64,000 nucleotides of DNA from Candidatus Yanofskybacteria bacterium (GTDB taxonomy: Bacteria; Patescibacteriota; Minisyncoccia; 2-02-FULL-40-12; IGHO2-01-FULL-4-A), in the NCBI GenBank assembly GCA_016185545.1, contig JACPNJ010000001.1, positions 22,565-86,564 of the forward strand, in the 5' to 3' direction. The position numbers and the translations under genes are program-made. This document shows, piece after piece, positions 1,227 through 56,963 of the stretch. How positions within the stretch are numbered: the first letter of the stretch is position 1; each line of letters begins with the position of its first letter. The notes under the pieces were generated by a model, which saw only the letters and a program-made list of their open reading frames with translations, did not search any database and was not told the origin of the DNA.

Positions 1227-3239
1227 TTATTGTTCCCTGAATTCCGGTTTTCGTTTTTCAAGAAATGCCCTTATGCCCTCTTCCGCGTCGCGAGTTTTAA
1301 ATACTTCCAGAATCGCATTTCTCTCGTCAGCCAGTCCCTCATCAAGATTTTTCCGATTGCCATTTATTATAGCCTGCCATGCGAATGCGAAAGATTTTGG
1401 AGTGGTGTAACCCGCCATTTTCCAATCAAGCTGTATTTTTTTCATTTCTTTACGGGCTTTCAATTTGTTACGAAGGCCTTCTTTTAGAGGCATTTTTTTT
1501 GCCTGCCTTCCGGATTCAAATTTATAACTGATGAACCTGTTTAATTGTTCAAAAATTGGCTTCAAAAATTCCGGTTCCATTTGATCTTCCGATAAAATTA
1601 AATCAGCCAGTGGTTTACATGCTTCTCGGGGATTTCCTGAGAGTATAAGATTGGCCGCCAAAGATTTGCCGGCTCGGCGGGGAAGCCGCTGTGTGCCGCC
1701 GGCGCCAGGCATAATTCCCAAAGTTACTTCCGGCAAGCCGACCATACTTCCTTTTTCGGCGACTATCCAGTCGCAGGCTAATGCCAACTCGTAGCCGCCG
1801 CCCAAAGCCCGTTTGCGTATCAAGGCAATCACCGGAGCCGGGAAATCTTCAATCGTTTTCAGCAAATCATTGAATTCGCCGACTGCTTTTTGCGCCTGTT
1901 CAATGCTTTGCAAGCACAGGGGGAATTCCTTGATATTGGCGCCGTTGACCGGCCCGTTAGCTCCGATAAATACCATCTTGATATTTTCTTGGCTTTCCAT
2001 TGATTCAAATGTCTCACGCAGTTTTCTTACAATTGATGACGACAAAAGATTGCCCTTGCCGTCGCCGAAAATAATTTGCCAGTAGCCGTCGCCGAGGTTG
2101 TTTAGTTTTACTTTGGGGCCGTGCTTGTAAAAACCTTCTCCTGTTTTCATCCCAAACTTCTTTTCGACAACCATTTTTTCAAGCAATAGCGGAATGAAGT
2201 GATGTTTTTCCGATTCTTGTTGTTGAAGCGATTTTAAGGCGTCCAAACTTACGTCATTGCCTACCAAATCGCAAAACATAACCGGTCCCATCCTGAATTT
2301 TAGCCGGTCTTTTTGTTCGTCCAATTTTTCTGCCGGTAAAGACAAAAGCCAATCAAGTTCTGATGCTTTTATTGGCCAATTCAAGCCGAATTTAAAGGCC
2401 TTATCAATCGTTTCCAGAGAGCAATCAGTTTCTTTCATAAGATTGGAAATGGATTTAGCCATAGCTTTCATAATCACCAAGGCGGGCGGGTATTTGTACC
2501 ATTCACCTCCCAAAAAAGACCCGTCTATTTTTTCTTTGATTGCGCCATTGTCCAGAACCTCAAAAGTGGCGGCGACCATTGGTAGAGCTACGCGATTGAC
2601 GATGAAACCGGGAATGTCAGGTGCTATCACGTAGGTTTTACCAAGTGCGGCGGCTAAATAAGTCGCCCAGGCCACGGTTTCACTGTTTGTACGTTTGGAA
2701 AAGATCAGCTCAACCAATTGCATTCGCGGCACCGGATTGAAAAAATGCATCCCCAGAAATTTTCCGGGATTTTTAACAGCCTGCGCCAGACTTTCAATCC
2801 TGATTGTTGAGGTGTTGGAGGCAATGGGAATGTCCGGGCCGACTTTTTCGGTAATCGTCCGATAAAGTTCCTTTTTCGCTTCGGGATTTTCAAAAATCGC
2901 TTCAATGACAAAATCGGCAAAGGCCAAAGATTCAAGATTGCTTGAATCCAAAAATTGAACGCGGTTTAAAATATTGTCAACCGCTTCCCTGGATTGGTAA
3001 ATTCGTTTACCGTCTAATCCTTTTGCCAAAAAGAGCGCAAGCCACAATTTAGTTTTATAATCCTCAACTATCTCACGATATATAAGTTCAAATGGTTGGC
3101 TATTAAATCTTTTTTTTCTGGCCATTTCACTGAAAACGTCATAAAGCTGGACCTCAAAGCCACTTTGCAGTGCAGTTTGCGCGATACCCAAGCCCATTGT
3201 TCCGGCGCCGAAAATGGCGATTCTTTGAATTTTTTCCAT
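1227..3239 (-). CDS. fused 3-hydroxyacyl-CoA dehydrogenase (N-terminal) / enoyl-CoA hydratase (C-terminal)
   Basis: N-terminal Rossmann 'IAIFGAGTMGLGIA' and HAD core. C-terminal crotonase motif 'ALGGGYELALACDWIVA...GLPEVTLGIMPGAGGTQRL'. RBS GGGAGAG lies 6 nt upstream of the ATG at 3239. Confidence 0.8.
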   Translation of the reverse strand: MEKIQRIAIFGAGTMGLGIAQTALQSGFEVQLYDVFSEMARKKRFNSQPFELIYREIVEDYKTKLWLALFLAKGLDGKRIYQSREAVDNILNRVQFLDSSNLESLAFADFVIEAIFENPEAKKELYRTITEKVGPDIPIASNTSTIRIESLAQAVKNPGKFLGMHFFNPVPRMQLVELIFSKRTNSETVAWATYLAAALGKTYVIAPDIPGFIVNRVALPMVAATFEVLDNGAIKEKIDGSFLGGEWYKYPPALVIMKAMAKSISNLMKETDCSLETIDKAFKFGLNWPIKASELDWLLSLPAEKLDEQKDRLKFRMGPVMFCDLVGNDVSLDALKSLQQQESEKHHFIPLLLEKMVVEKKFGMKTGEGFYKHGPKVKLNNLGDGYWQIIFGDGKGNLLSSSIVRKLRETFESMESQENIKMVFIGANGPVNGANIKEFPLCLQSIEQAQKAVGEFNDLLKTIEDFPAPVIALIRKRALGGGYELALACDWIVAEKGSMVGLPEVTLGIMPGAGGTQRLPRRAGKSLAANLILSGNPREACKPLADLILSEDQMEPEFLKPIFEQLNRFISYKFESGRQAKKMPLKEGLRNKLKARKEMKKIQLDWKMAGYTTPKSFAFAWQAIINGNRKNLDEGLADERNAILEVFKTRDAEEGIRAFLEKRKPEFREQ

Positions 3240-3364
3240 GGTTCTCTCCCGATTATTTTTTAAAGTTCTGTATTATTATATTATGTATTAATCCAAGGAT
3301 AAATTACTCCTAACCGCAAATTTTGTAAAGCACACCCGCTGCTTGTATTGTATGATATCGTGCT

Positions 3365-3410
3365 GTACGACATCGCAAGTCGTGCAATTGCACGACTTGC
3401 GATGTCGTAC
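3365..3410. promoter_or_regulatory. 46-bp perfect palindrome (GTACGACATCGCAAGTCGTGCAATTGCACGACTTGCGATGTCGTAC), putative operator upstream of the HAD-ECH gene
   Basis: Exact reverse-complement symmetry read directly from the sequence. Flanked by further GCTGTACGAC / GTCGTACAGC arms (3358-3425). No T-run follows, so it does not look like a simple terminator. Confidence 0.45.
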
Positions 3411-3510
3411 ATGTCGTACAGCGTGTCGTGCAGGTTGCAAACTTATGCTCAATAGATGTGGTGGTGAAGTTAGTTTTGTAATAAAAAATCAGGATAAAAT
3501 CCTGATTGAT

Positions 3511-4260
3511 TTAATGTGTTTTGCGTTCGAAAAAGAGAGCGGAAATACCCGTTTGCTTTTCGGTGTAGCCGAAAAATAGACCATGCAGTCGCGTGTAAAT
3601 CCTTACCAAAACCCAAGTACGGGGGTCTACCATGACCCAGATATAAACTGGGCCAAGTAATACCAAAGCAAGCAAATTCCAGAATCCCCAGAAATTTTGG
3701 TAGGTTGGGATAGTAGTATCAACAATGGGTTTCAGTCCCAGCACTTCCAATCCGGAATTCCACATAAAGTGATTTCCACCCCATGCCTCGGGATGGCCCA
3801 AGAATGGCGCTAGGAAAGAAAAATTTAAATAGTCGTAGTACAGCGAGTCAGAAATTGCAAAAAATATTCCGAAAGCCGTGGCATAAAGTGTAAAACGTAC
3901 TGTTTGCCATCTCCATGGCCTTCCCCCAAGCAAAGCTAAAGGTGCGAAAATGGTATAAAGCAAAATACCCACGAGTGAAAAAATTATATTTTCTGTCAGC
4001 CATCCCGTGAAAAAAAGCGCGGTGCCGGCAATTGTCGGAAACCATGCAGTAACCCTGTAGCTTTTTATGTACCCAGTAAGCGCTTCAACCAAAAGACCGA
4101 CAAGCGGCAAGAAAATAAGGAAATCTAGGATGAAACTCCGGCAAGTGCCAGGAGTATATGTTTGAGTTAATTTTTGCATTACGTTCCGGGTTACAGGATA
4201 TCGCTTGGCGGCGAGAACGATACTGATACTGCCAAGAATTAGCAAAAGTAATGTTGTCAT
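3511..4260 (-). CDS. polytopic integral membrane protein (hypothetical)
   Basis: Multiple hydrophobic helices. Start chosen at 4260, where the ATG overlaps the TGA stop of the upstream epimerase gene (ATGA). Confidence 0.45.
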   Translation of the reverse strand: MTTLLLLILGSISIVLAAKRYPVTRNVMQKLTQTYTPGTCRSFILDFLIFLPLVGLLVEALTGYIKSYRVTAWFPTIAGTALFFTGWLTENIIFSLVGILLYTIFAPLALLGGRPWRWQTVRFTLYATAFGIFFAISDSLYYDYLNFSFLAPFLGHPEAWGGNHFMWNSGLEVLGLKPIVDTTIPTYQNFWGFWNLLALVLLGPVYIWVMVDPRTWVLVRIYTRLHGLFFGYTEKQTGISALFFERKTH

Positions 4261-5300
4261 ATTAATTTCTCCTTTCTCATCCATTCAAGAGTTTCGCGCA
4301 GTCCGCCGTCTTTAATCGGGTCATCGTATATGAAATCAAATCTCAAATCGCGGATGGATTTGGAACTGACCAAGAAATCATACCCCTTTTCAAAATATCC
4401 AAGAAAATCTCGCTGAACCAGCGGCGGATGATTGTATTTGCGCGCGATTTGCTCCGACCGCCAAGCAAAAAATCTCATAAGCCAAAGCGGATAGCTGACA
4501 GGGAAAAGGTCAATCCTGACTCCGAGCCGTTCAAATTCTTTTTTAAGATATTTCATAAGTTCTTTTGTGGTGTAAGAAAAATTACCGCCAAGATTGTAAC
4601 TTTTACCGATTGTATCCGTTCGTTTGGCCAGAAAAAGCGCTGCCCGGCAAACATCTGTTACGTGTACCAAACTTATGCGGTTTTTGCCGTTGCCCGGAAA
4701 ACCGGGCAGCTGATTCTTTGCCATCATATCAATTACGACCATTGCCCCGTAATTACCACCCGGTCCGTAAATTGCCATTGGAAAAATTTCAGTTATAGGA
4801 AGGTCTTTATATTCTTGGCAAATAAGGTGCTGGAGGAATTTAGATTCTTCATAGGCGATTCTTGGAAGCATCGGAGCGTTTTCCGTGAGCGATGTCCCGG
4901 GTGTGACATTTTTGAAGCTATCGCCATAAACAGATGCCGAAATCCAAGCCACGATATGTCGCACATTCGGATTGTGATTTCGAGTTGCTTTCAAGCAGTT
5001 TTCCATAATAGTGGCGTTAATTTTGAGGATGGTCTGACGGGGAATATCATATCTGAAAATAGAAGCGACAAACATTCCAATGTCTGGTTTGTATTTATTC
5101 ATCATGTGTTTCGTGTCTAGTAAGTTTGCCAAGTCGCAAGGGTAACATTCTACACCATCTGGTAGTAGTTTTGGCTTGGCATTGGGGTGGTCAGTCGCGA
5201 TGACCTTAAAGCCGTTATCTACAAGAAGACGCACCATATGCGGTCCCACAAATCCATAAGCGCCGGTTACCAAAGCGGTGGGTTTTTTTGTTTCTGGCAT
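4257..5300 (-). CDS. NAD-dependent epimerase/dehydratase (extended SDR)
   Basis: N-terminal 'ALVTGAYGFVGPHMVRLL' GxxGxxG Rossmann motif and SDR-like length. RBS GAGGAAA upstream of the ATG. Confidence 0.75.
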   Translation of the reverse strand: MPETKKPTALVTGAYGFVGPHMVRLLVDNGFKVIATDHPNAKPKLLPDGVECYPCDLANLLDTKHMMNKYKPDIGMFVASIFRYDIPRQTILKINATIMENCLKATRNHNPNVRHIVAWISASVYGDSFKNVTPGTSLTENAPMLPRIAYEESKFLQHLICQEYKDLPITEIFPMAIYGPGGNYGAMVVIDMMAKNQLPGFPGNGKNRISLVHVTDVCRAALFLAKRTDTIGKSYNLGGNFSYTTKELMKYLKKEFERLGVRIDLFPVSYPLWLMRFFAWRSEQIARKYNHPPLVQRDFLGYFEKGYDFLVSSKSIRDLRFDFIYDDPIKDGGLRETLEWMRKEKLI

Positions 5301-5418
5301 ATCATTTCCTCGTTTTTAATGAACCAATGGTTACCCAGATTCTTTATTATTGTTGACATTTTGTCAAATTGAAATAGACTGCGATTAGAATTTATGATCT
5401 TTAAAAATGAGGAATATT

Positions 5419-6921
5419 ATGGTTGGGAATAAAATCATTGTCATTAATCCTGCAAATTCAGAGACGGTGGAAGAGTTGCCGGTTCATAATGCGTCGGACT
5501 TGGATGTTTTGGCGCAAGATGCCAGGACAGCCCAAAAAAAATGGAAAACCGTACCTTTTTCTGAACGGCTGGAACTTTTTAAAAATCTGAAACATTTTAT
5601 TCAGCATAACTATCAGGAATTTGTTACGACAATCCAACCGGAAACTGGCAAAACTTGTCCCGATACGATGGTGGATGTAATTTCCATGGTTGCCCAGATT
5701 CATAATATTGAAAAAAATGGCATCGGCCGTGTTTTGGAATTTCAAAAGCCAATCAAGTCCCATCCCTTTTTACGCAACAAAATAACGACTGTGCCACGCA
5801 GACCCAAAGGGGTAGTGGGTGTAATCTCGCCGTGGAATCTGCCGCTGGCAATTCCAGCGGCGGATATATTTCCGGCGATATTTCGCGGTAATGCGGTAAT
5901 ATGGAAACCTTCAGAGTTCACACCACTTTCGGCGCTAAAACTTAAGGATGCGATGAATAAGGTTGGATTCCCCGGCAATCTGCTGCAAGTCGCTATCGGT
6001 TACGGAGAGACCGGCGCGGCACTTTGCGAGACCGTTGACTGCGTTGCTTTTACCGGTTCGTGCGCGACTGGAGAAAAAGTAAAAGCAATCTGTGATAGGC
6101 GTCACATTTCGCATCATCTTGAAATGGGCGGGAAAGCTCCAGCCATTGTTCTTGCCGATGCCGACATTGACCGCGCTGTTTACGGTTTGCTCTATGGCGC
6201 GTTCAGCAATAACGGCCATTATTGCAAGGCGTTTGAAATCGCGCTGGTTCATTTAAGCATTTTTGATGAAGTGGTTGACCGGCTTTTGCATCTTGTCAAT
6301 AATTTGGTACCCGGCAAAGATTACGGACCCATCATTACCAAACCGCAACTTGAAATCATAAAAAATCAGGTAGAACAAGCCAGAAATCTCCATGCTTATG
6401 TTGCAACCGGCGGGCTAGAGATTGGCGAGGCACGTGGCTATTGGTATAAGCCGACAGTCCTTCTTTACACTACCGAAGATATGGATGTCGTACGAAAAGA
6501 AACTTTTGGTCCGGTGTTGCCGATTATTCCGTTTGATAAGGAAGAGGAGGCAATTCGTATCGCCACAATGTCGCACCTTGGGTTGAATGCCTCAATTTTC
6601 ACGAGAAACGAGAAAAAGTTTTATGAACTTGCCAATGGCATTCTTGCTGATCATATTGGCAATATTGTCGGTAATGACGTTATGATTAACTGGTTTATCA
6701 CCGAAGCGCCGCAGTGCGGCAGAAAATACAGTGTTGCTCCAGTTTGCGGGCTTGAACGCCATGGGCGTTCCGGTGATGAACGCTTTGATACCCCTAATAC
6801 CATTATCTGGCACAAACATTCGTTTTTCCATCTCCCGTTTTTCAAAAATAAGGAACCGTGGTGGCTGCCATATGGTGGTTTAACGAATTTAACGTTGAAA
6901 ACTTTTCTTTGGGGGTTTTGA
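5419..6921 (+). CDS. aldehyde dehydrogenase family protein
   Basis: ALDH-family hallmarks: 'ISPWNLP', 'EMGGKAP' (catalytic Glu region) and 'FSNNGHYCKA' (catalytic Cys region). GAGGAA RBS before the ATG at 5419. Confidence 0.8.
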   Translation: MVGNKIIVINPANSETVEELPVHNASDLDVLAQDARTAQKKWKTVPFSERLELFKNLKHFIQHNYQEFVTTIQPETGKTCPDTMVDVISMVAQIHNIEKNGIGRVLEFQKPIKSHPFLRNKITTVPRRPKGVVGVISPWNLPLAIPAADIFPAIFRGNAVIWKPSEFTPLSALKLKDAMNKVGFPGNLLQVAIGYGETGAALCETVDCVAFTGSCATGEKVKAICDRRHISHHLEMGGKAPAIVLADADIDRAVYGLLYGAFSNNGHYCKAFEIALVHLSIFDEVVDRLLHLVNNLVPGKDYGPIITKPQLEIIKNQVEQARNLHAYVATGGLEIGEARGYWYKPTVLLYTTEDMDVVRKETFGPVLPIIPFDKEEEAIRIATMSHLGLNASIFTRNEKKFYELANGILADHIGNIVGNDVMINWFITEAPQCGRKYSVAPVCGLERHGRSGDERFDTPNTIIWHKHSFFHLPFFKNKEPWWLPYGGLTNLTLKTFLWGF

Positions 6922-23964: not shown

Positions 23965-24135
23965 AAAAATTAGAGCGAGGCCATTATGCCTCATAGCACC
24001 GTCAAAAGAGTGGATTGCACGGTTTGCGAGCAGTACAATAGTAAAGCACTGCGAGCAAAATCCACGCTTTTGACGGAATGCAGAATTCTCGCTGGGAATT
24101 CAAATGGTGATAGGAGGCATAATGGCGAGCGGATA
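23965..24135. mobile_element. MITE-like repeat family B, copy 1 (about 170 bp, TIR GCGAGGCCATTATGCC / GGCATAATGGCGAGC, long internal hairpin)
   Basis: Second copy at 53378-53548 with the same termini and the internal CCGTCAAAAGAGTGGATT / AATCCACGCTTTTGACGG inverted pair. Confidence 0.5.
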
Positions 24136-26170: not shown

Positions 26171-26356
26171 TTATAGCAAACCCAAATATTATGTCAATTG
26201 TTTGTGGATAACCAAAATACTGAGAATAACTCGGTTTTTTTACTCCCAGGGGGTGGGGAATTAAAAGACAAAGTGTTAGATATTTTTGGAAATTTCTGGA
26301 GTTTCTATAAATAAGCTCTAGAAATGAGCCATAGCAATAACTGATGCCTTTCTTTA

Positions 26357-27160
26357 CTTAGAGGCTCAGCCTCTAAGTAACCAACAACTTACAATTTTTG
26401 CCGAGACACCTCGGCTTTTATTTTACTTTCGCCGCACAGGTTACTTAGAGGTTGAGCCTCTAAGTAACCTGTGCTATAAGTTTAATCTATGAGAAAACTT
26501 CAATTTGAAAATGGAGAGTTTTATCACATATACAACCGGGGCAACAATAAAAGGCCTATTTTTATGAAATCTTTTGATTTGCAGAGATTTTTGCAAAGTA
26601 TGATTGAATTCAATGTAGATGGACCAATCGGAAGTATTTATGCCGTTTCTTTCAACAAAGAATCACTTAGAGGCTCAGCCTCTAAGTCGAGACGACCAGT
26701 TGATATTGTTTGTTATTGCCTAAATCCTAACCATTTTCATCTTTTAGTTAGACAGTTGGAAAACGATGGAATTAAGAATTTTATGCATAAATTAGGAACT
26801 GGATATACAATGTATTTTAATAATAAACACGAATTGAACGGTGGACTTTTTCAGGGGAGATATAAAGCAATTCACATAGATACAAATGATTATCTGTTGT
26901 ATTTAAGCGCTTATATCAATTTAAATCCTGAAGCCCATCAACTTAGAGGCTCAGCCTCTAAGTTGTGCCAATCAAGTTGGAATGAATATATCGGTGATAA
27001 ATCTAGCAAGGGTAAATTGTGCAATACCAGGATTGTATTGTCGCAGTTTGAAACCGTGGAGGGTTATAAAAAATTTGCCGAAAAGGCGCTCGGGGTGATT
27101 ATAGAGAAAAAAGAGATGGAAGAATCCCTGAAGCTTTTACTTAGAGGCTGAGCCTCTAAG
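26357..27160. repeat. REP-like 21-bp palindrome CTTAGAGGCT(C/G)AGCCTCTAAG, five copies (26357-26377, 26444-26464, 26666-26686, 26942-26962, 27140-27160)
   Basis: Exact or 1-mismatch copies read from the sequence. Copies 3 and 4 lie in frame inside the RAYT ORF (LRGSASK). Copy 5 contains the ORF's TGA stop. Confidence 0.7.
26489..27151 (+). CDS. REP-associated tyrosine transposase (RAYT) / IS200-like HuH Y1 transposase
   Basis: 'GEFYHIYNRGNNKRPIF' N-terminal RAYT motif, HuH motif 'NHFHLLV' and catalytic tyrosine context 'GGLFQGRYKA'. Confidence 0.75.
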   Translation: MRKLQFENGEFYHIYNRGNNKRPIFMKSFDLQRFLQSMIEFNVDGPIGSIYAVSFNKESLRGSASKSRRPVDIVCYCLNPNHFHLLVRQLENDGIKNFMHKLGTGYTMYFNNKHELNGGLFQGRYKAIHIDTNDYLLYLSAYINLNPEAHQLRGSASKLCQSSWNEYIGDKSSKGKLCNTRIVLSQFETVEGYKKFAEKALGVIIEKKEMEESLKLLLRG

Positions 27161-27294
27161 TGGCTATGGGCGCTTGCTTGGCGCTTTAAATTTTGTTATT
27201 ATTCTCAGCATGTCAGAAGTTAGTAGTACAACCCCGTTAGATATTTACGTTGTTAAGCAAACTAACGAGGTTAAATCGGGCATATTGTTAATTT

Positions 27295-29814: not shown

Positions 29815-29974
29815 CCACTCGCCATAGTACCCCTTGGGAACTTCAAAAATCCCAGCGAGATTTTTTCATCTTTTGTGATTGCCGCCATTTGTCAAGACAC
29901 TCACTTCGTTCGGTCATTGACAAAACCATGCTGGCGGCAACCCCAGAAGTCCCAAAAGGCACTATGGCTCGCTC
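29815..29974. mobile_element. MITE-like repeat family C (about 160 bp, TIR CCATAGTGCCTTTTGGGACTTC / GAAGTTCCCAAAAGGTACTATGG), inverted copy
   Basis: The reverse complement is about 90% identical to 55418-55579. Located between rpmG and tRNA-Trp. Confidence 0.5.
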
Positions 29975-29997
29975 TTGTTACCAGTAGTAATTAGACT

Positions 29998-39715: not shown

Positions 39716-40090
39716 GTGAATAAAGACGATTTTATAAAACAAGTCGAATCTATGACAGTAGTTGAGCTTAATGATCTAGTGAAAGCGCTGGAGGAAAAGT
39801 TTGGAGTATCGGCTGCGGCTATGGCCGCGCCGGCAGCCGGAGCAGCTAGCGGGGAAGAGGCCGGTCCGTCAGAAGAAAAAGATTCTTTTAATGTAATTCT
39901 TCAAAGCGCCGGTGAACAGAAAATACAGGTTATCAAAGTGATCCGTGAGATAACCGGTAAGGGTCTCAAAGAATCCAAAGATTTGGTTGATGGTGCTCCG
40001 CAAACGGTAAAAGAAGGTGTGAAGAAAGAGGAAGCTGATGAACTTAAAAAGAAATTGGAGGATGCGGGCGCGACAGTAGAACTCAAGTAA
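39716..40090 (+). CDS. rplL: 50S ribosomal protein L7/L12
   Basis: '[31 protein letters not shown]', Ala-rich hinge and C-terminal '[22 protein letters not shown]'. GTG start at 39716 with an AGGAG RBS 7 nt upstream. Confidence 0.85.
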
Positions 40091-40120
40091 TCAAAAACCG
40101 GCCATGCGGCCGGTTTTTGA

Positions 40121-42163
40121 TTACTTGAGTGTCCAGATTTTGTTGTCCGTGGATAGAATCCAAACCGTGCCGTCGGAGGAGACGGATATATCTTGAGGTG
40201 TGCCGACAGCTTCTAGTTTATAAGTTGTTTTAAGTTCGCCTGTTGTTTTATCAAAAATATAAACTCTTTTGTTTGTCTTATCGGCCAGAAAGAGGAAAGC
40301 CGAGTCCTTGAAAGTGAAAATGCGGCTGTCTGACGCAGGAATAAGCCGCAAATCCAATTCGCCGGTTTTTTTGCCCTTAAAGTATAATATCAGTTTGCCA
40401 TTGTCCGCAAGCGCGTAAATATTGCCGTCAGCGGTTATGGATGTCAGATTACCGCTTGCATTGTCGCTGGTCCAGATTGTACGCTTCGTTCCGCCAGTTA
40501 CTGCGTCGGCATATTTATATATTGTTTTATCGGAAAGAATATAAAGATTATTTTCGTATAAGATAGCGTCTATAGCGGATACCGGTTCTTTAAGAGTGTA
40601 CTGCTCAATTTTTTTGGATTTCAAATCATAGATGCCGAAGGCGTCAGAACCGTTGAAGACGGAGGCAAATGATGATGAAGTATATAGAAATTGTGGTGTA
40701 ATCTTGAATTGGCCTAACTGTGAAACTTCATTTTGATTGACATTGAAAATTAGGCCAATAATATCGATTATGCTGATAAGACCGTCATAAGCTGACACGA
40801 AACTAACCTTGAGATTGCTGTTTTGAGCCGATATGTCCGCGAAAAGCGTTGGTTGTTTATCGCTAACGCGATCAAGGTCATCCAAAGTTTGATTTATTTG
40901 TAATTTAATATTTTCGGCTTTTTTGTCTGAAAAACTGGCTAAACTTGCCAAGGATGCCTGAAGCAGTGTCCGAGCGTCTTTAAAATTGCTTTGGTTAAGC
41001 CATGATTGCGCCAGTTTAACATTTTCGCCTGCTTGTTTTATGGTGTTCCTGTTTTCATTTGAAATTCCTCCGGTTTTCCATAAAACAAAAATTAAAACGG
41101 GAAAAATAATGATCGCGGAAACTAGAATAAAACCACGCCGGCGCGCGCGTTCTCCCAATTTGCCAGTAGAAATCAGTTTACGGAGACCTTTTATAACCGG
41201 AGTTAAAATCGTTTCTCTTTTACTTACTAAAAATTCAGCGGGTATAATACGTGATTGTTCCATTTCTGGACTTTCCGGGCCGGTTCCTTGGTCCGCGACC
41301 GTAATTTCGGGTATTTGATCAGGGACATCTTGGGGTTTGCCGCTATTCAGTCTGATTTGAGACGGTTGTTTTGTATTCTGAGACTCTAGCGGAGCTTCCG
41401 GCTCCGTTTCCTTTTCCTTGTTGTCGTTTGGTGTCCTAGTTTTAAAAGTTGATTTGGTATAAGTTGCTGATGATACGGGTATTTCTTTAACCTCATGCAT
41501 ATCTATATGAACACCGCAGCAGGAAAAATTAGTTGTATTGGTAGCCAAATGTGCTATTTTTTGGCCAAATTCTTCCTGGTTTTCCTTGATGAAAATTCCA
41601 TTAAGTTGTTTTTCCCTTGATGTCAGCGACCTTGATGGAAAGTAAGCGAATATTTTGTCTTTTGACTGAACTTTACCGGAAATAATATTTGAAAACTGCT
41701 TTTCGCCCTCGGCATCCTTACTGAATAATTCAACATTATTGAGTATGTCTATATATTTACCGTTGCGAGCCAAGGCAATTTTGAATTTACCCAAACGCGA
41801 AATGTAAATATTTTCGCCTGAAATTGCGGCCAAGCCGATATTCAGTTTAAAATTATTGTTTTGGAAAAAATCATCCAAAACCTCATTAAGCTTTTTTAGA
41901 GTGCGCTCGAAAGCGCTTTTAGCATTTTGTTCCCGTAACGATATGTCTGAATAATATTCTCTTTTTGCCAAAGACGAAATTAAACTTATCGTGTAAGAAA
42001 GATCCTCTTGAGAATATTTGATGTGGCCCAAAACAAAGAGCGAGCCAAGCATTTTTTCCTGATTCCCGGCGCCTTGATATGCTAAAACATCAAAATGAAC
42101 ATTATCCTCGCCGCTTTTGTAGATAAGCTCTTTGATAGCAGGTTTTAAAGTAATTTTTTCCAT
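40121..42163 (-). CDS. membrane-anchored hypothetical protein with C-terminal beta-propeller-like repeats
   Basis: Cytoplasmic about 330-aa N-terminal domain, one TM helix ('FILVSAIIIFPVLIFVLW') and a C-terminal region of repeated 'DG.IY.L.D.K.I' strands (PQQ/WD-like). Confidence 0.4.
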   Translation of the reverse strand: MEKITLKPAIKELIYKSGEDNVHFDVLAYQGAGNQEKMLGSLFVLGHIKYSQEDLSYTISLISSLAKREYYSDISLREQNAKSAFERTLKKLNEVLDDFFQNNNFKLNIGLAAISGENIYISRLGKFKIALARNGKYIDILNNVELFSKDAEGEKQFSNIISGKVQSKDKIFAYFPSRSLTSREKQLNGIFIKENQEEFGQKIAHLATNTTNFSCCGVHIDMHEVKEIPVSSATYTKSTFKTRTPNDNKEKETEPEAPLESQNTKQPSQIRLNSGKPQDVPDQIPEITVADQGTGPESPEMEQSRIIPAEFLVSKRETILTPVIKGLRKLISTGKLGERARRRGFILVSAIIIFPVLIFVLWKTGGISNENRNTIKQAGENVKLAQSWLNQSNFKDARTLLQASLASLASFSDKKAENIKLQINQTLDDLDRVSDKQPTLFADISAQNSNLKVSFVSAYDGLISIIDIIGLIFNVNQNEVSQLGQFKITPQFLYTSSSFASVFNGSDAFGIYDLKSKKIEQYTLKEPVSAIDAILYENNLYILSDKTIYKYADAVTGGTKRTIWTSDNASGNLTSITADGNIYALADNGKLILYFKGKKTGELDLRLIPASDSRIFTFKDSAFLFLADKTNKRVYIFDKTTGELKTTYKLEAVGTPQDISVSSDGTVWILSTDNKIWTLK

Positions 42164-43153: not shown

Positions 43154-43228
43154 GGGCTCGTAGTTCAGGGGCAGAACGTCCGATTCACATTCGGAAGGTC
43201 AGAGGTTCAAATCCTCTCGAGCCCACCA
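43154..43228 (+). tRNA. tRNA-Val (anticodon CAC)
   Basis: Acceptor GGGCTCG/CGAGCCC, anticodon stem-loop TCCGA-TTCACAT-TCGGA, T-arm AGAGG-TTCAAAT-CCTCT, CCA encoded. Confidence 0.8.
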
Positions 43229-43265
43229 AAACAAATACGCCACCTAGGTGGCGTATTTGTTTTGG
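43229..43265 (+). terminator. rho-independent terminator after tRNA-Val
   Basis: AAACAAATACGCCACC-TAGG-TGGCGTATTTGTTT followed by TGG. Confidence 0.5.
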
Positions 43266-43618
43266 TGGTGATGTTGATAACTTGTATACATTAATTTTGG
43301 CTTTGTAAATGTAATTTCGGAAAATATGTTAAAAATCGGCTAGAATAGGCGATTTTTTGTGATTGTGTCAAATATAGAATTGACGCTAAAGTTATGCACA
43401 TTGCATAGTATTGCGGTACTGGAATTGGGTGGTATATAATGAAGGTAAAGTGTAAGAAAGTGGATAATAGTGTTAATAACTAAGGCAAATCGTTGATAAA
43501 CTTTCAAAAAGAATCCGGTACTGATATATTGGTTTGGTTGAATTATCGAAATGTTTGATAAGCCCACAATATTTCCCGCCATTTACACATATTCATGTAG
43601 TGTCAAAATTTTAGCCAT

Positions 43619-44053
43619 ATGTTTATCGGAGAATACAAACATATAATTGATGCCAAAAAACGGCTTGCGATTCCGGTTAAATTCAGAAAAGAACTTGGCG
43701 ATAGGATAGTGTTAACCAGGGGATTGGACGGCTGTTTATTTATTTTCCCAATGAAAGAATGGGAGCAATTGGCTGAAAAACTCGGCAAGTTGCCGTTCGG
43801 CCAGCAAGATTCAAGAGGTTTTGCGAGATTACTGCTGGCGGGTGCTTCGGAAGTGGAATTTGATCAGCTCGGGAGAATATTAGTTCCGGATTTCTTAAAA
43901 GGTTATGCCGTATTAAAAAAGGAAGTGGTAATTGCCGGTCTTTTCAATAAATTGGAAATCTGGGATGAAACACGCTGGTCAAATTACAAAGCAAATCTTG
44001 AAAAGAACAGCGACAGGATAGCGGAGAAGTTGGGGGAGCTGGGAATAATATAA
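43619..44053 (+). CDS. mraZ: transcriptional regulator MraZ
   Basis: 'MFIGEYKHIIDAKKRLAIPVKFRKEL' with duplicated MraZ half-domains. Confidence 0.85.
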   Translation: MFIGEYKHIIDAKKRLAIPVKFRKELGDRIVLTRGLDGCLFIFPMKEWEQLAEKLGKLPFGQQDSRGFARLLLAGASEVEFDQLGRILVPDFLKGYAVLKKEVVIAGLFNKLEIWDETRWSNYKANLEKNSDRIAEKLGELGII

Positions 44054-55417: not shown

Positions 55418-55579
55418 AGCAAAGCCATAGTGCCTTTTGGGACTTCTGGGGTTGCCGCCAGCATGGTTTTGTCAATGACCGAGTTAAGCGAGTGTCTTGA
55501 CAAATGGCGGCAATCACAAAAGATGAGCCGAGCTCGCTGGAGCGAGGCGAAGTTCCCAAAAGGTACTATGGCGAAGCGA
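55418..55579. mobile_element. MITE-like repeat family C, copy 2
   Basis: Matches the reverse complement of 29815-29974. Its right TIR overlaps the last codons of cysS. Confidence 0.5.
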
Positions 55580-56963
55580 GTTTTTTGACTAGCGGGCCGT
55601 AGTTGGTATCTTCAATCTCGTAGCCGAGGTTTTTTATTTGGTCGCGGAGTTGGTCGGAGTGGATGAAGTCCTTGGCTTGGCGAATGGTTTCGCGCTCGCT
55701 TATTAGTTTTTGTATCTCCGGCGGTATTTCTTGTGATTTTTTAGGAATGATACTGAGAATTTGATCAAATTCATTTAGCATTTCCAAAGATTTTTTTGCA
55801 TCTTCACTGCTGATTTTTCTTTCATCAATCAACGGATTTACTTCTCTTACAAAATCAAACAAAGACGCAATTGCTTTGGGAGTATTAAAATCATCATCCA
55901 TTTCTTTTTCAAAATTTTCCTTTATTTTTTCAATCAATTCCAACTTAGGAGTTGAACTCCTAAGTAGAGATTTTTCAATATTTTTTAGGCGATTAGTAAA
56001 TTCGGCTAAACGATTTACTGCTGCCTCGGTTTGTCTCAGGTTTTCTTCGCTGTAATCAATAGGAGAGCGATAATAAGCCATCAGTATCATCATGCGTAAA
56101 GCTTCGGCTGGATATTTTTTTAAGGCGTCGCGTATTGTTATGAAATTGCCTAGCGACTTGGACATTTTTTGGCCACTGACGGTTAAAAATCCAGGGTGTA
56201 TCCAGTATTTGACGAATGGTTTTTTGCCGGAAATTGATTCCATTTGGGCAATTTCGGCTTCATGGTGTGGAAATATCAGATCTTGTGCGCCGCCATGCAG
56301 GTCGTATTGGAAACCGAAATGTTTTTCAGTCATAGCGGTATCTTCAATGTGCCACCCTGGACGGCCATAGCCAAGCTCGCTATTCCAACCCGGTTCCTCC
56401 AGCTTAGAAAATTTCCACAAGGCAAAATCGCCGCGATTTCTTTTTTTTATGCTTTCATCAATGCGGCTGACTGCATCTTCCGCTGATTGTGTTGTCCGTC
56501 CCGACAGTTTGCCGTAATCAGGAAATTTGACCAGGTCAAAATAATAACCGTCATCTTCGATGAGATAGGCGATACCCTTTTCAATCAGTTGTTTTACTTG
56601 GCTAACAATTTCCGGAATATATTGAGTTGCCGGAGCGTATTCCGAAACCGCAGTGATGCCGAGGGATTTCATGTCCTCGTAATATGCTTCTTTATATTCC
56701 AGCGCTAAATCAGCCGGATTAATCATTTTTTGTTTGGCCCGCTCAATAATTTTATCGTCAATGTCGGTAATGTTTTGCAGATAAAAAACTTCGTAGCCGC
56801 GATGCCGCAGATATTTGGCGACAACGTCAAAAACAACATAGGTTCTGGCATGGCCTATGTGCGAATAATCATAAACCGTTGGTCCGCAGACGAACATCCT
56901 GACTTTTGAGCCGGGTGAGAGAAATTCTTCTTTTTGGCGAGCTAGAGTATTATAGATTTGCAT
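55566..56963 (-). CDS. cysS: cysteine--tRNA ligase
   Basis: 'CGPTVYDYSHIGHAR' HIGH motif, 'KMSKSLGN' and zinc-binding Cys. Confidence 0.9.
   Translation of the reverse strand: MQIYNTLARQKEEFLSPGSKVRMFVCGPTVYDYSHIGHARTYVVFDVVAKYLRHRGYEVFYLQNITDIDDKIIERAKQKMINPADLALEYKEAYYEDMKSLGITAVSEYAPATQYIPEIVSQVKQLIEKGIAYLIEDDGYYFDLVKFPDYGKLSGRTTQSAEDAVSRIDESIKKRNRGDFALWKFSKLEEPGWNSELGYGRPGWHIEDTAMTEKHFGFQYDLHGGAQDLIFPHHEAEIAQMESISGKKPFVKYWIHPGFLTVSGQKMSKSLGNFITIRDALKKYPAEALRMMILMAYYRSPIDYSEENLRQTEAAVNRLAEFTNRLKNIEKSLLRSSTPKLELIEKIKENFEKEMDDDFNTPKAIASLFDFVREVNPLIDERKISSEDAKKSLEMLNEFDQILSIIPKKSQEIPPEIQKLISERETIRQAKDFIHSDQLRDQIKNLGYEIEDTNYGPLVKKLASP

What the first reader, a model, noticed from the sequence alone, without database searches (positions are those of the whole stretch)
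3358..3425. 46-bp perfect palindrome (extended to about 68 bp) between the membrane-protein/epimerase genes and the HAD-ECH gene
GTACGACATCGCAAGTCGTGCAATTGCACGACTTGCGATGTCGTAC is exactly self-complementary, with additional GCTGTACGAC / GTCGTACAGC arms. It is much longer than needed for a terminator and has no U-tract. It could be an operator for a dimeric regulator controlling the 1227-3239 beta-oxidation-like gene, or a mobile palindromic element.
Basis: seen in the sequence. Interest (0 to 1): 0.5.

Follow-up and report, generated by a model that had tools for sequence, protein, structure and literature searches.

The report
Strain-specific palindromic insert upstream of a promoter
The 48-bp perfect palindrome is real, but it lies in a roughly 130-bp strain-specific insert, in a spacer that related genomes leave empty or fill with other small repeat elements, so it is more likely a small selfish or mutational hairpin element than a conserved gene switch.

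Summary
The palindrome is confirmed. It is perfect over 48 bp (3364-3411). A 9-bp tandem duplication (TGTCGTACA x2) and a further TGTCGTGCA extend it, giving six GTCGTRC heptamers in 67 bp. Independent re-assemblies of at least three sequencing runs reproduce both halves.

The window comes from a Candidatus Yanofskybacteria (CPR) genome. On the minus strand the palindrome lies after the upstream membrane gene's own terminator (3507-3487). It lies 34 bp or more before the conserved -35/-10 promoter of the HAD-ECH gene (3329-3324 / 3306-3301).

I compared nine syntenic loci from relatives, eight of them distinct. Five join terminator and promoter directly. The others carry three different inserts at this spot, and two of those belong to dispersed repeat families that also have copies in this window. 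The palindrome insert is unique to this genome.

The only relative of the palindrome is a 34-bp palindrome with near-identical arms in one related genome. It lies in a different intergenic insert, next to the same gene cluster.

The window contains no TetR/GntR/FadR-type regulator and no second site. It contains no other copy of the palindrome either.

Most likely reading (about 0.5): a REP/MITE-like palindromic insertion, at most a hairpin insulator. Main rival (about 0.2): an acquired regulator-binding array. Interest is modest.

The parts
3364..3411 (.). Perfect 48-bp palindrome with 24-nt arms and no spacer. Each arm (for example 3364-3386, TGTACGACATCGCAAGTCGTGCA) is itself an imperfect hairpin: ACGAC-N7-GTCGT.
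3403..3420 (+). Tandem 9-bp duplication TGTCGTACA x2. The second copy gives the outer arm ATGTCGTACAGC (3411-3422), which pairs with 3362-3373 in an alternative register.
3424..3432 (+). Additional direct copy TGTCGTGCA. It is the sixth GTCGTRC heptamer of the cluster at 3365-3431. A degenerate seventh, ATCGTGC, lies at 3357-3363.
3347..3476 (.). Lineage-specific insert of about 130 bp between the terminator T-run and the promoter-proximal conserved sequence. It holds the palindrome cluster plus about 45 nt of non-repetitive sequence (3433-3476). The boundaries are approximate. A possible TAC/ATAC junction repeat is too short to count as a target-site duplication.
   Evidence: Alignment with relatives lacking it. 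No other copy in the window or in fetched loci.
3487..3507 (-). Intrinsic terminator of the upstream membrane gene: AATCAGGAT-TTT-ATCCTGATT followed by TTTTTATT on the minus strand. It is conserved in relatives.
3301..3329 (-). Inferred promoter of the HAD-ECH gene: -35 TTTACA (3329-3324), 17-nt spacer, -10 TAATTT (3306-3301). The key positions are invariant in 8 relatives. The consensus scan does not call it because the -10 is weak.
   Evidence: invariant TT.A.AA ... TA...T; no consensus hit.
1227..3239 (-). Fused 3-hydroxyacyl-CoA dehydrogenase / enoyl-CoA hydratase gene downstream of the palindrome.
   Evidence: Identical to an NCBI Candidatus Yanofskybacteria protein.
3511..4284 (-). Upstream membrane-protein ORF with no Pfam family. 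Gene callers use a 249-aa version. It ends 103 bp before the palindrome centre as measured along the minus strand.

Best explanation
The palindrome is the core of a recent, strain-specific insertion of a small palindromic repeat element (REP/MITE-like, or built by hairpin-mediated template switching and slippage). It landed in the dispensable spacer between the upstream gene's terminator and the HAD-ECH promoter.

Shown:
- The insert is absent from every relative.
- The terminator and promoter on either side are conserved.
- The same spacer has been filled independently by at least three other unrelated inserts in relatives. Two of them belong to dispersed, TIR-bounded repeat families that are also present in this genome.
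- A homologous palindrome sits in a different, also lineage-specific, intergenic insert in a related genome.

Inferred:
- The unit spreads or arises through its ssDNA hairpin.
- It has since grown by local duplication (the 9-bp tandem repeat and the extra heptamers).
- Its only likely effect is that of a strong hairpin behind the terminator, blocking read-through or protecting the upstream mRNA 3' end, as REP elements do in E. coli.

On this reading it is not a dedicated operator of the HAD-ECH gene.
For: 1. Lineage-specific insert. Five syntenic relatives (L056, L057, L060, L065, L066) join the terminator T-run to the -35 within about 10-35 nt. The window has about 130 extra nt.

2. Insertion hot spot. 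L003 and L064 carry a different element of about 190 nt with 24-bp inverted ends. L067 carries a third insert. L068 and L069 carry a fourth.

3. Two of those inserts are dispersed repeats. The L003-type core recurs in the window at 51573-51703 (92-97% identity). The L067-type ends recur at 29.8, 53.3-53.6 and 55.4-55.6 kb as TIR-bounded elements.

4. A related palindrome lies elsewhere. L056 2016-2049 reads CGTCATCGCAAGTCGT-CA-ACGGCTTGCGATGACG. These are the only hits with up to 3 mismatches to the 17-nt arm in 447 kb of fetched loci. They lie inside a stretch of about 76 nt that L066, L067, L064 and the window lack.

5. Conservation pattern. Arm identity is about 88-94%, while the surrounding intergenic DNA is about 45-53% identical. 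The arm spacing differs (8 nt against 2 nt). Conserved stems with a variable loop fit a hairpin element better than a fixed-spacing dimer site.

6. The genome carries other small palindromic repeats and a Y1 (IS200/RAYT-like) transposase ORF.

7. No regulator gene and no second site were found.
Against: Only one copy exists in the 64 kb, and one related copy in about 60 kb of relatives. Multi-copy status, which defines REP and MITE elements, is therefore not shown.

Pattern scans of JGI metagenomes and IMG/VR found only chance hits.

Outside the palindrome the window insert and the L056 insert share no sequence, and there is no clear target-site duplication.

The Y1 transposase-like ORF is flanked by a different palindrome.

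Both known copies lie beside the same epimerase / membrane protein / HAD-ECH gene cluster. That would be a coincidence of roughly 5% for a low-copy random element, and it is what a regulon site would predict.
Confidence: 0.5

Rival explanations
1. An acquired cis-regulatory module. The six GTCGTRC heptamers, or the two ACGAC-N7-GTCGT dyads, would be a binding array for a regulator encoded outside the window. That regulator would activate or repress the HAD-ECH promoter from an upstream position. In the relative L056 it would control the epimerase and branched-chain 2-oxoacid dehydrogenase E1 promoters.
For: The heptamer is strongly clustered: 6 of the 9 copies in 64 kb lie within 67 bp, and TGTCGTRCA occurs 4 times against 0.36 expected.

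Each arm is a 17-bp dyad of a size typical for operators.

The related palindrome in L056 starts 5 nt upstream of the epimerase -35 (TTGACA). It lies beside a 2-oxoisovalerate dehydrogenase E1 gene. That gene is functionally linked to a beta-oxidation-type HAD-ECH enzyme, so a common regulon is conceivable.
Against: The palindrome is absent from the orthologous promoter in all nine syntenic relative loci, although the promoter is conserved.

The arm spacing differs by 6 bp between the two examples.

Heptamer centre-to-centre distances (14, 11, 14, 9, 12 bp) show no helical phasing.

The only regulators found in the 64 kb are HrcA, MraZ and a small MerR/HTH_17 protein. The MraZ boxes upstream of mraZ read AAAGTG(T/G), which is not this motif.

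No further site occurs in the window.

In L056 the insert appears to split the ancestral E1 promoter rather than decorate it.
Confidence: 0.22
2. A selected RNA-level hairpin. Read-through transcripts of the membrane gene would fold a 22-bp stem that acts as a second transcription block or 3' exonuclease barrier. This would insulate the HAD-ECH promoter from upstream transcription.
For: The predicted RNA hairpin is very stable (-49.4 kcal/mol, z = -8.4). It lies directly downstream of the terminator on the sense strand.

The L056 homologue keeps its stem through a G-U pair on the sense strand.

REP elements in E. coli have this kind of effect (my own knowledge, not tested here).
Against: There is no U-tract. 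A canonical conserved terminator already precedes it. Five relatives do without any such hairpin. Rfam matches are only sub-threshold generic hairpin hits. The perfect symmetry is not needed for RNA function.
Confidence: 0.13
3. A DNA-processing site: a replication origin or iteron array, a dif- or parS-like site, or an attachment or cleavage site of a recombinase.
For: The repeats are clustered and could form a cruciform. The cumulative GC skew has its minimum near 4 kb.
Against: The skew minimum simply follows the minus-strand gene block 1227-5300. No DnaA-box cluster lies nearby. Repeat spacing is irregular. There is no similarity to phage or plasmid DNA. The locus is syntenic chromosomal DNA, and the site is absent from relatives.
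Confidence: 0.04
4. An assembly artefact, that is, a chimeric snap-back join.
For: k-mer assemblies break inside it.
Against: Both halves with their unique flanks are reproduced in independent re-assemblies of several runs. The adjacency of the membrane gene and HAD-ECH gene is conserved in all relatives.
Confidence: 0.02

Closest known systems
REP / BIME / REPIN elements (repetitive extragenic palindromes mobilised by RAYT Y1 transposases)
   Same: It is a short extragenic palindrome. Each 23-nt arm is an imperfect hairpin, and two arms in inverted orientation form a longer hairpin, as in a REPIN. Extra copies in mixed orientation resemble a BIME. It lies downstream of a gene's 3' end. The genome encodes a Y1_Tnp-like protein and other palindromic repeats.
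   Different: Only one locus was seen in 64 kb. The two arms are perfectly complementary with no spacer. The Y1 ORF in the window is flanked by an unrelated 23-bp palindrome. No conserved 5' tetranucleotide could be defined.
MITE-like intergenic elements (for example Correia, ERIC, RUP/BOX), including families A and B of this same genome
   Same: It is a lineage-specific insertion into an intergenic spacer next to a promoter. The same spot is occupied by TIR-bounded dispersed repeats in relatives. It shows dyad symmetry.
   Different: There are no separate terminal inverted repeats around a distinct interior. There is no clear target-site duplication. The inserts in the window and in L056 share only the palindrome core.
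Palindromic operators of dimeric HTH regulators (TetR/GntR/FadR-type control of fatty-acid degradation genes)
   Same: It has dyad symmetry, lies upstream of a beta-oxidation-type gene, and contains 17-bp sub-dyads.
   Different: It lies upstream of the promoter rather than overlapping it. It is not conserved in orthologous promoters. No cognate regulator lies nearby. The total length and perfection far exceed what a dimer contacts.
Bidirectional intrinsic terminators of this genome (for example 40081-40130 and 43223-43268)
   Same: These are also long perfect palindromes in intergenic DNA.
   Different: Those lie between convergent genes and contain an A-tract, a G+C stem and a T-tract. The palindrome under study has no A or T tracts and lies between co-directional genes, after a separate terminator.

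Membership tests
REP/REPIN | Short imperfect palindrome located outside genes | tested here: met
   It lies in the intergenic region 3240-3510. Each arm forms an ACGAC-N7-GTCGT hairpin.
REP/REPIN | Many dispersed copies per genome | tested here: not met
   There is one locus in 64 kb. The rest of the genome could not be searched, so genome-wide copy number remains open.
REP/REPIN | A RAYT (Y1 transposase) gene flanked by the same palindrome | tested here: not met
   The Y1_Tnp-like ORF 26489-27151 is flanked and interrupted by ACTTAGAGGCTCAGCCTCTAAGT, which is unrelated.
MITE | Terminal inverted repeats bounding an interior, plus a target-site duplication | tested here: inconclusive
   The only inverted repeats are the palindrome itself. 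The junctions share just TAC/ATAC.
MITE | Presence/absence polymorphism at orthologous sites, with copies at non-orthologous sites | tested here: met
   Empty sites occur in L056, L057, L060, L065 and L066. A related palindrome lies at another intergenic site in L056.
Transcription-factor operator | Conserved in the promoters of orthologous genes | tested here: not met
   It is absent from all nine syntenic relative loci, while the -35 and -10 are conserved.
Transcription-factor operator | Overlaps or abuts the core promoter | tested here: not met
   The nearest edge (3364) is 34 bp upstream of the -35 (3329). The centre is about 58 bp upstream of the -35.
Transcription-factor operator | Cognate regulator nearby and further sites in the regulon | tested here: not met
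   There is no TetR/GntR/FadR-type gene in 64 kb and no further site. One related palindrome lies near the same cluster in L056, which leaves this partly open.
Intrinsic terminator | G+C-rich stem followed by a U-tract | tested here: not met
   No T-run follows on either strand. The scan calls only the separate hairpin at 3487-3507.
Replication origin / iterons | Regularly phased repeats, DnaA boxes, and a GC-skew switch not explained by gene orientation | tested here: not met
   Repeat spacings are 14, 11, 14, 9 and 12 bp. No DnaA-box cluster is present. The skew follows gene strand.

The most novel reading that the evidence does not exclude
CPR (Yanofskybacteria) genomes may harbour a previously undescribed class of very short (34-48 bp) mobile perfect palindromes. 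Together with several unrelated hairpin/MITE families, these would home to the DNA just downstream of intrinsic terminators or into promoter spacers. They might be mobilised in trans by the genome's Y1 (RAYT-like) transposase and could rewire promoters, as the L056 copy may have done to the E1 dehydrogenase promoter.
Probability: 0.15. Interest if true: 0.55.

Novelty: new member of a known kind. Interest (0 to 1): 0.3.

Why it matters
On the most likely reading, the palindrome adds an example of small palindromic repeat dynamics in a streamlined CPR genome. One terminator-to-promoter spacer was invaded independently at least four times among close relatives. I found no description of repeat elements in these lineages in the paper library.

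There is also a practical point. Palindromes like this one systematically break k-mer assemblies, so they fragment CPR MAGs at such spots.

If the regulatory rival were true, this would be a first cis-element tied to acyl-CoA / branched-chain catabolic genes in a CPR bacterium. The function of such genes in this group is itself unclear.

Tried and rejected
- **Origin of replication.** The cumulative GC-skew minimum near 4 kb is explained by the minus-strand gene block. There is no DnaA-box cluster.
- **MraZ array.** mraZ is in the window, but its own upstream boxes read AAAGTG(T/G), not GTCGT.
- **HrcA/CIRCE and the small MerR protein.** Neither the motif nor the position fits.
- **Sigma-54 promoter inside the palindrome.** Judged by eye, TTGCACGACTTGCG has the wrong GG/GC spacing.
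- **Known RNA family.** Only sub-threshold generic hairpin hits, such as miRNA precursors. The gathering-threshold scan gave tRNAs only.
- **Phage or plasmid origin.** No meaningful BLAST hit.
- **Pattern scan of JGI metagenomes for the four-heptamer geometry.** One hit, L061, in an unrelated and apparently eukaryotic large inverted repeat. This is chance, because a palindromic pattern only needs half its information in a palindromic target.
- **IMG/VR scans.** The 18-mer core gave one coding-region chance hit in a high-GC contig. The arm pattern gave none.
- **Genome contigs.** The source genome is not among the species representatives. Only one close relative, L003, was found.
- **Regulon test.** I looked for the E1 dehydrogenase orthologue in the source population. 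The only close hit, L063, is a short contig starting inside the promoter, so it was uninformative.
- **Small ORFs across the palindrome** (3288-3452 minus strand, 3343-3579 plus strand). I treated these as by-products of the symmetry and did not pursue them.

Full report
**1. The observation**

The sequence at 3364-3411 is a perfect 48-bp palindrome with 24-nt arms and no spacer. It occurs once in the window and never in shuffles.

The reported outer arms are real: GCTGTACGACAT at 3362-3373 and ATGTCGTACAGC at 3411-3422. They arise because TGTCGTACA is tandemly duplicated at 3403-3411 and 3412-3420. The '68-bp palindrome' is therefore an alternative pairing register, not a continuous dyad.

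A further TGTCGTGCA follows at 3424-3432. In all, six of the nine GTCGTRC heptamers in the 64 kb fall within 3365-3431, in mixed orientation. Their centre-to-centre distances are 14, 11, 14, 9 and 12 bp.

The predicted hairpin is very stable:

| Molecule | Free energy | z-score |
|---|---|---|
| RNA | -49.4 kcal/mol | -8.4 |
| ssDNA | -31.9 kcal/mol | -7.0 |

Independent Logan re-assemblies confirm the sequence. L001 and L002 reproduce the left half with its flank. L053 and L054 reproduce the right half with its flank. All of them break inside the palindrome, which is what a k=31 de Bruijn graph does at a true palindrome longer than k.

**2. Source and context**

The HAD-ECH protein (1227-3239, minus strand) and the upstream membrane protein are 100% identical to NCBI proteins of a Candidatus Yanofskybacteria MAG, a CPR bacterium, on a 132-kb contig.

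On the minus strand the order is as follows:
- epimerase (4257-5300);
- membrane ORF (3511-4284);
- a canonical terminator hairpin, 3507-3487, followed by a T-run;
- the palindrome;
- the HAD-ECH promoter and gene.

The promoter is inferred from conservation. Alignment with relatives shows an invariant TT(T/G)A(C/T)AA box and a TA...T box 17 nt downstream. In window coordinates these are -35 TTTACA at 3329-3324 and -10 TAATTT at 3306-3301. The consensus scanner misses this promoter because the -10 is weak.

The palindrome therefore starts 34 bp upstream of the -35 and does not overlap the promoter.

**3. Comparative evidence**

I recovered nine syntenic loci (epimerase, membrane protein, HAD-ECH) from relatives with 56-78% membrane-protein identity and 66-76% HAD-ECH identity. 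L057 and L058 carry the same protein, so eight of the loci are distinct.

| Spacer state | Loci |
|---|---|
| Terminator T-run joined to the -35 within about 10-35 nt | L056, L057, L060, L065, L066 |
| Insert of about 190 nt with 24-bp inverted ends (family A) | L003, L064 |
| A different insert (family B ends) | L067 |
| Another different insert | L068, L069 |
| Palindrome-bearing insert of about 130 nt (approximately 3347-3476) | this window only |

The palindrome is absent from all nine relative loci.

Two of the foreign inserts are dispersed repeats:
- The G+C-rich hairpin core of the L003-type insert recurs in this window at 51573-51703 (92-97% identity). That copy also lies just after a terminator hairpin.
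- The ends of the L067-type insert are the terminal inverted repeats of an element present three times in the window, at about 29815-29975, 53340-53580 and 55418-55590.

So this terminator-to-promoter spacer is a recurrent landing site for small repeat elements.

**4. A relative of the palindrome**

In 447 kb of fetched non-self loci, the only matches to the 17-nt arm ACGACATCGCAAGTCGT with up to 3 mismatches are the two arms of a palindrome in L056. L056 is the locus whose HAD-ECH protein is 71% identical to the window's. The palindrome reads CGTCATCGCAAGTCGT-CA-ACGGCTTGCGATGACG at 2016-2049.

It lies at a different intergenic site, between a divergent 2-oxoisovalerate dehydrogenase E1 gene and the epimerase gene, starting 5 nt upstream of the epimerase -35. 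It lies inside a stretch of about 76 nt that L066, L067, L064 and the window lack. By eye, that stretch separates the ancestral E1 -10 from its -35.

The arms are about 88-94% identical between the two genomes. The surrounding intergenic DNA is only about 45-53% identical, and the inter-arm spacing differs (8 nt against 2 nt). Conserved stems, a variable loop, non-orthologous positions and arrival within an insert block all point to a hairpin-type mobile or recombinogenic unit. A point-mutation-evolved, fixed-geometry operator would not look like this.

**5. Tests of the operator idea**

Pfam scans of essentially all ORFs in the window found no TetR, GntR/FadR, LysR or similar regulator. The only DNA-binding regulators are HrcA, MraZ and an 83-aa MerR/HTH_17 protein. 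The MraZ boxes upstream of mraZ read AAAGTG(T/G).

No additional dyad, core or arm site exists in the window beyond chance.

One point favours a regulatory role. Both known copies of the palindrome family flank the same gene cluster, and the L056 neighbour, the branched-chain 2-oxoacid dehydrogenase E1, is metabolically linked to a HAD-ECH enzyme. I therefore keep this as the main rival, at about 0.2.

**6. Other readings rejected or downgraded**

- **Terminator:** no U-tract, and a separate terminator is present.
- **Replication origin:** the skew follows gene strand and there are no DnaA boxes.
- **Known RNA family:** none.
- **Phage or plasmid DNA:** no similarity.
- **Artefact:** excluded by the independent assemblies described above.
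- **Database-wide pattern scans:** only chance hits.

The other long perfect palindromes in the window, at 40081-40130 and 43223-43268, are A-tract/stem/T-tract bidirectional terminators between convergent genes. The palindrome under study is the only long one without terminator features.

**7. Verdict**

The most likely explanation (about 0.5) is a strain-specific REP/MITE-like palindromic insertion. It would have been enlarged by local slippage and would lie in a neutral, repeatedly invaded spacer. Its effect would be at most that of a hairpin insulator behind the terminator.

Membership in REP or MITE families is not established. Multi-copy status was not met in the 64 kb, and the Y1 transposase-like gene in the window is associated with a different palindrome.

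Scanning the complete MAG for the arm motif, and checking reads for filled and empty alleles, would decide between the selfish-element reading and the regulatory reading.

Noticed in passing
window 26354-27161: A 23-bp perfect palindrome, ACTTAGAGGCT(C/G)AGCCTCTAAGT, occurs five times. Two copies lie upstream of a Y1_Tnp (IS200/RAYT-like) ORF at 26489-27151. Two copies lie in frame inside the ORF, each encoding LRGSASK. One lies at its 3' end. This looks like REP-type palindromes inserted into the coding sequence of their own putative transposase, reminiscent of Rickettsia palindromic elements.
   Followed up: partly
window 29815-29975, 53340-53580, 55418-55590; L067 2385-2511: A MITE-like family with terminal inverted repeats, GCCATAGTRCCTTTTGGGAACTTC ... 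GAAGTCCCAAAAGGCACTATGGC. It has three intergenic copies in the window and one in relative L067 at the HAD-ECH upstream spot. The 53.3-53.6 kb copy has a different interior from the other two. That interior is related to another hairpin element at 23981-24095 (77% identity).
   Followed up: partly
window 51573-51703; L003 3725-3925; L064 2105-2240: A G+C-rich long-hairpin element, TACCGGCGGAGGCGCGCGCGTTTTGC ... GCAAAACACGCGCGCGTAGCCGGTA, is shared between this genome and relatives at non-orthologous sites. In this genome it lies just after the L21 gene terminator. It has no Rfam match and could be a MITE or a structured RNA.
   Followed up: partly
window 43223-43268 and 40081-40130: Two other perfect palindromes with 23-nt arms. 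The first overlaps the 3' end (CCACCA) of tRNA-Val. The second overlaps the stop codons of two convergent genes. Both have an A-tract, stem and T-tract, and look like bidirectional terminators.
   Followed up: partly
window 1227-3239 and 5407-6921; L056 1-1930: A CPR (Yanofskybacteria) genome encodes a fused 3-hydroxyacyl-CoA dehydrogenase / enoyl-CoA hydratase and an aldehyde dehydrogenase. Relatives carry a fused 2-oxoisovalerate dehydrogenase E1 at the same divergent promoter. To my knowledge, such beta-oxidation and branched-chain catabolic enzymes are unexpected in this group. Their role is unknown.
   Followed up: no
window 5343-5365; L063 1-58; L064, L066 and L067 epimerase upstream regions: The divergent promoter region upstream of the epimerase has overlapping -35 boxes, TTGACA-N4-TGTCAA, conserved in all relatives. 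The gene on the other side alternates between an aldehyde dehydrogenase (window, L057; the partial upstream ORFs in L064 and L065 were not identified) and the E1 dehydrogenase (L056, L066, and L067 judged from its start sequence). L063 starts with 30 nt identical to the window's promoter but continues into E1. This suggests gene replacement at a fixed promoter.
   Followed up: partly
window 43446-43475: Three phased AAAGTG(T/G)-type boxes (AAAGTGT, AAAGTGG, ATAGTGT) lie upstream of mraZ (43619-44053). This matches the MraZ operator pattern known from Firmicutes and Mollicutes.
   Followed up: no
L055 (SRR12113430) end, corresponding to window ~3484: One re-assembled contig ends just past the terminator hairpin rather than inside the palindrome. 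This would fit a graph branch between alleles that differ downstream of the terminator, that is, an insert presence/absence polymorphism. It could not be checked.
   Followed up: no
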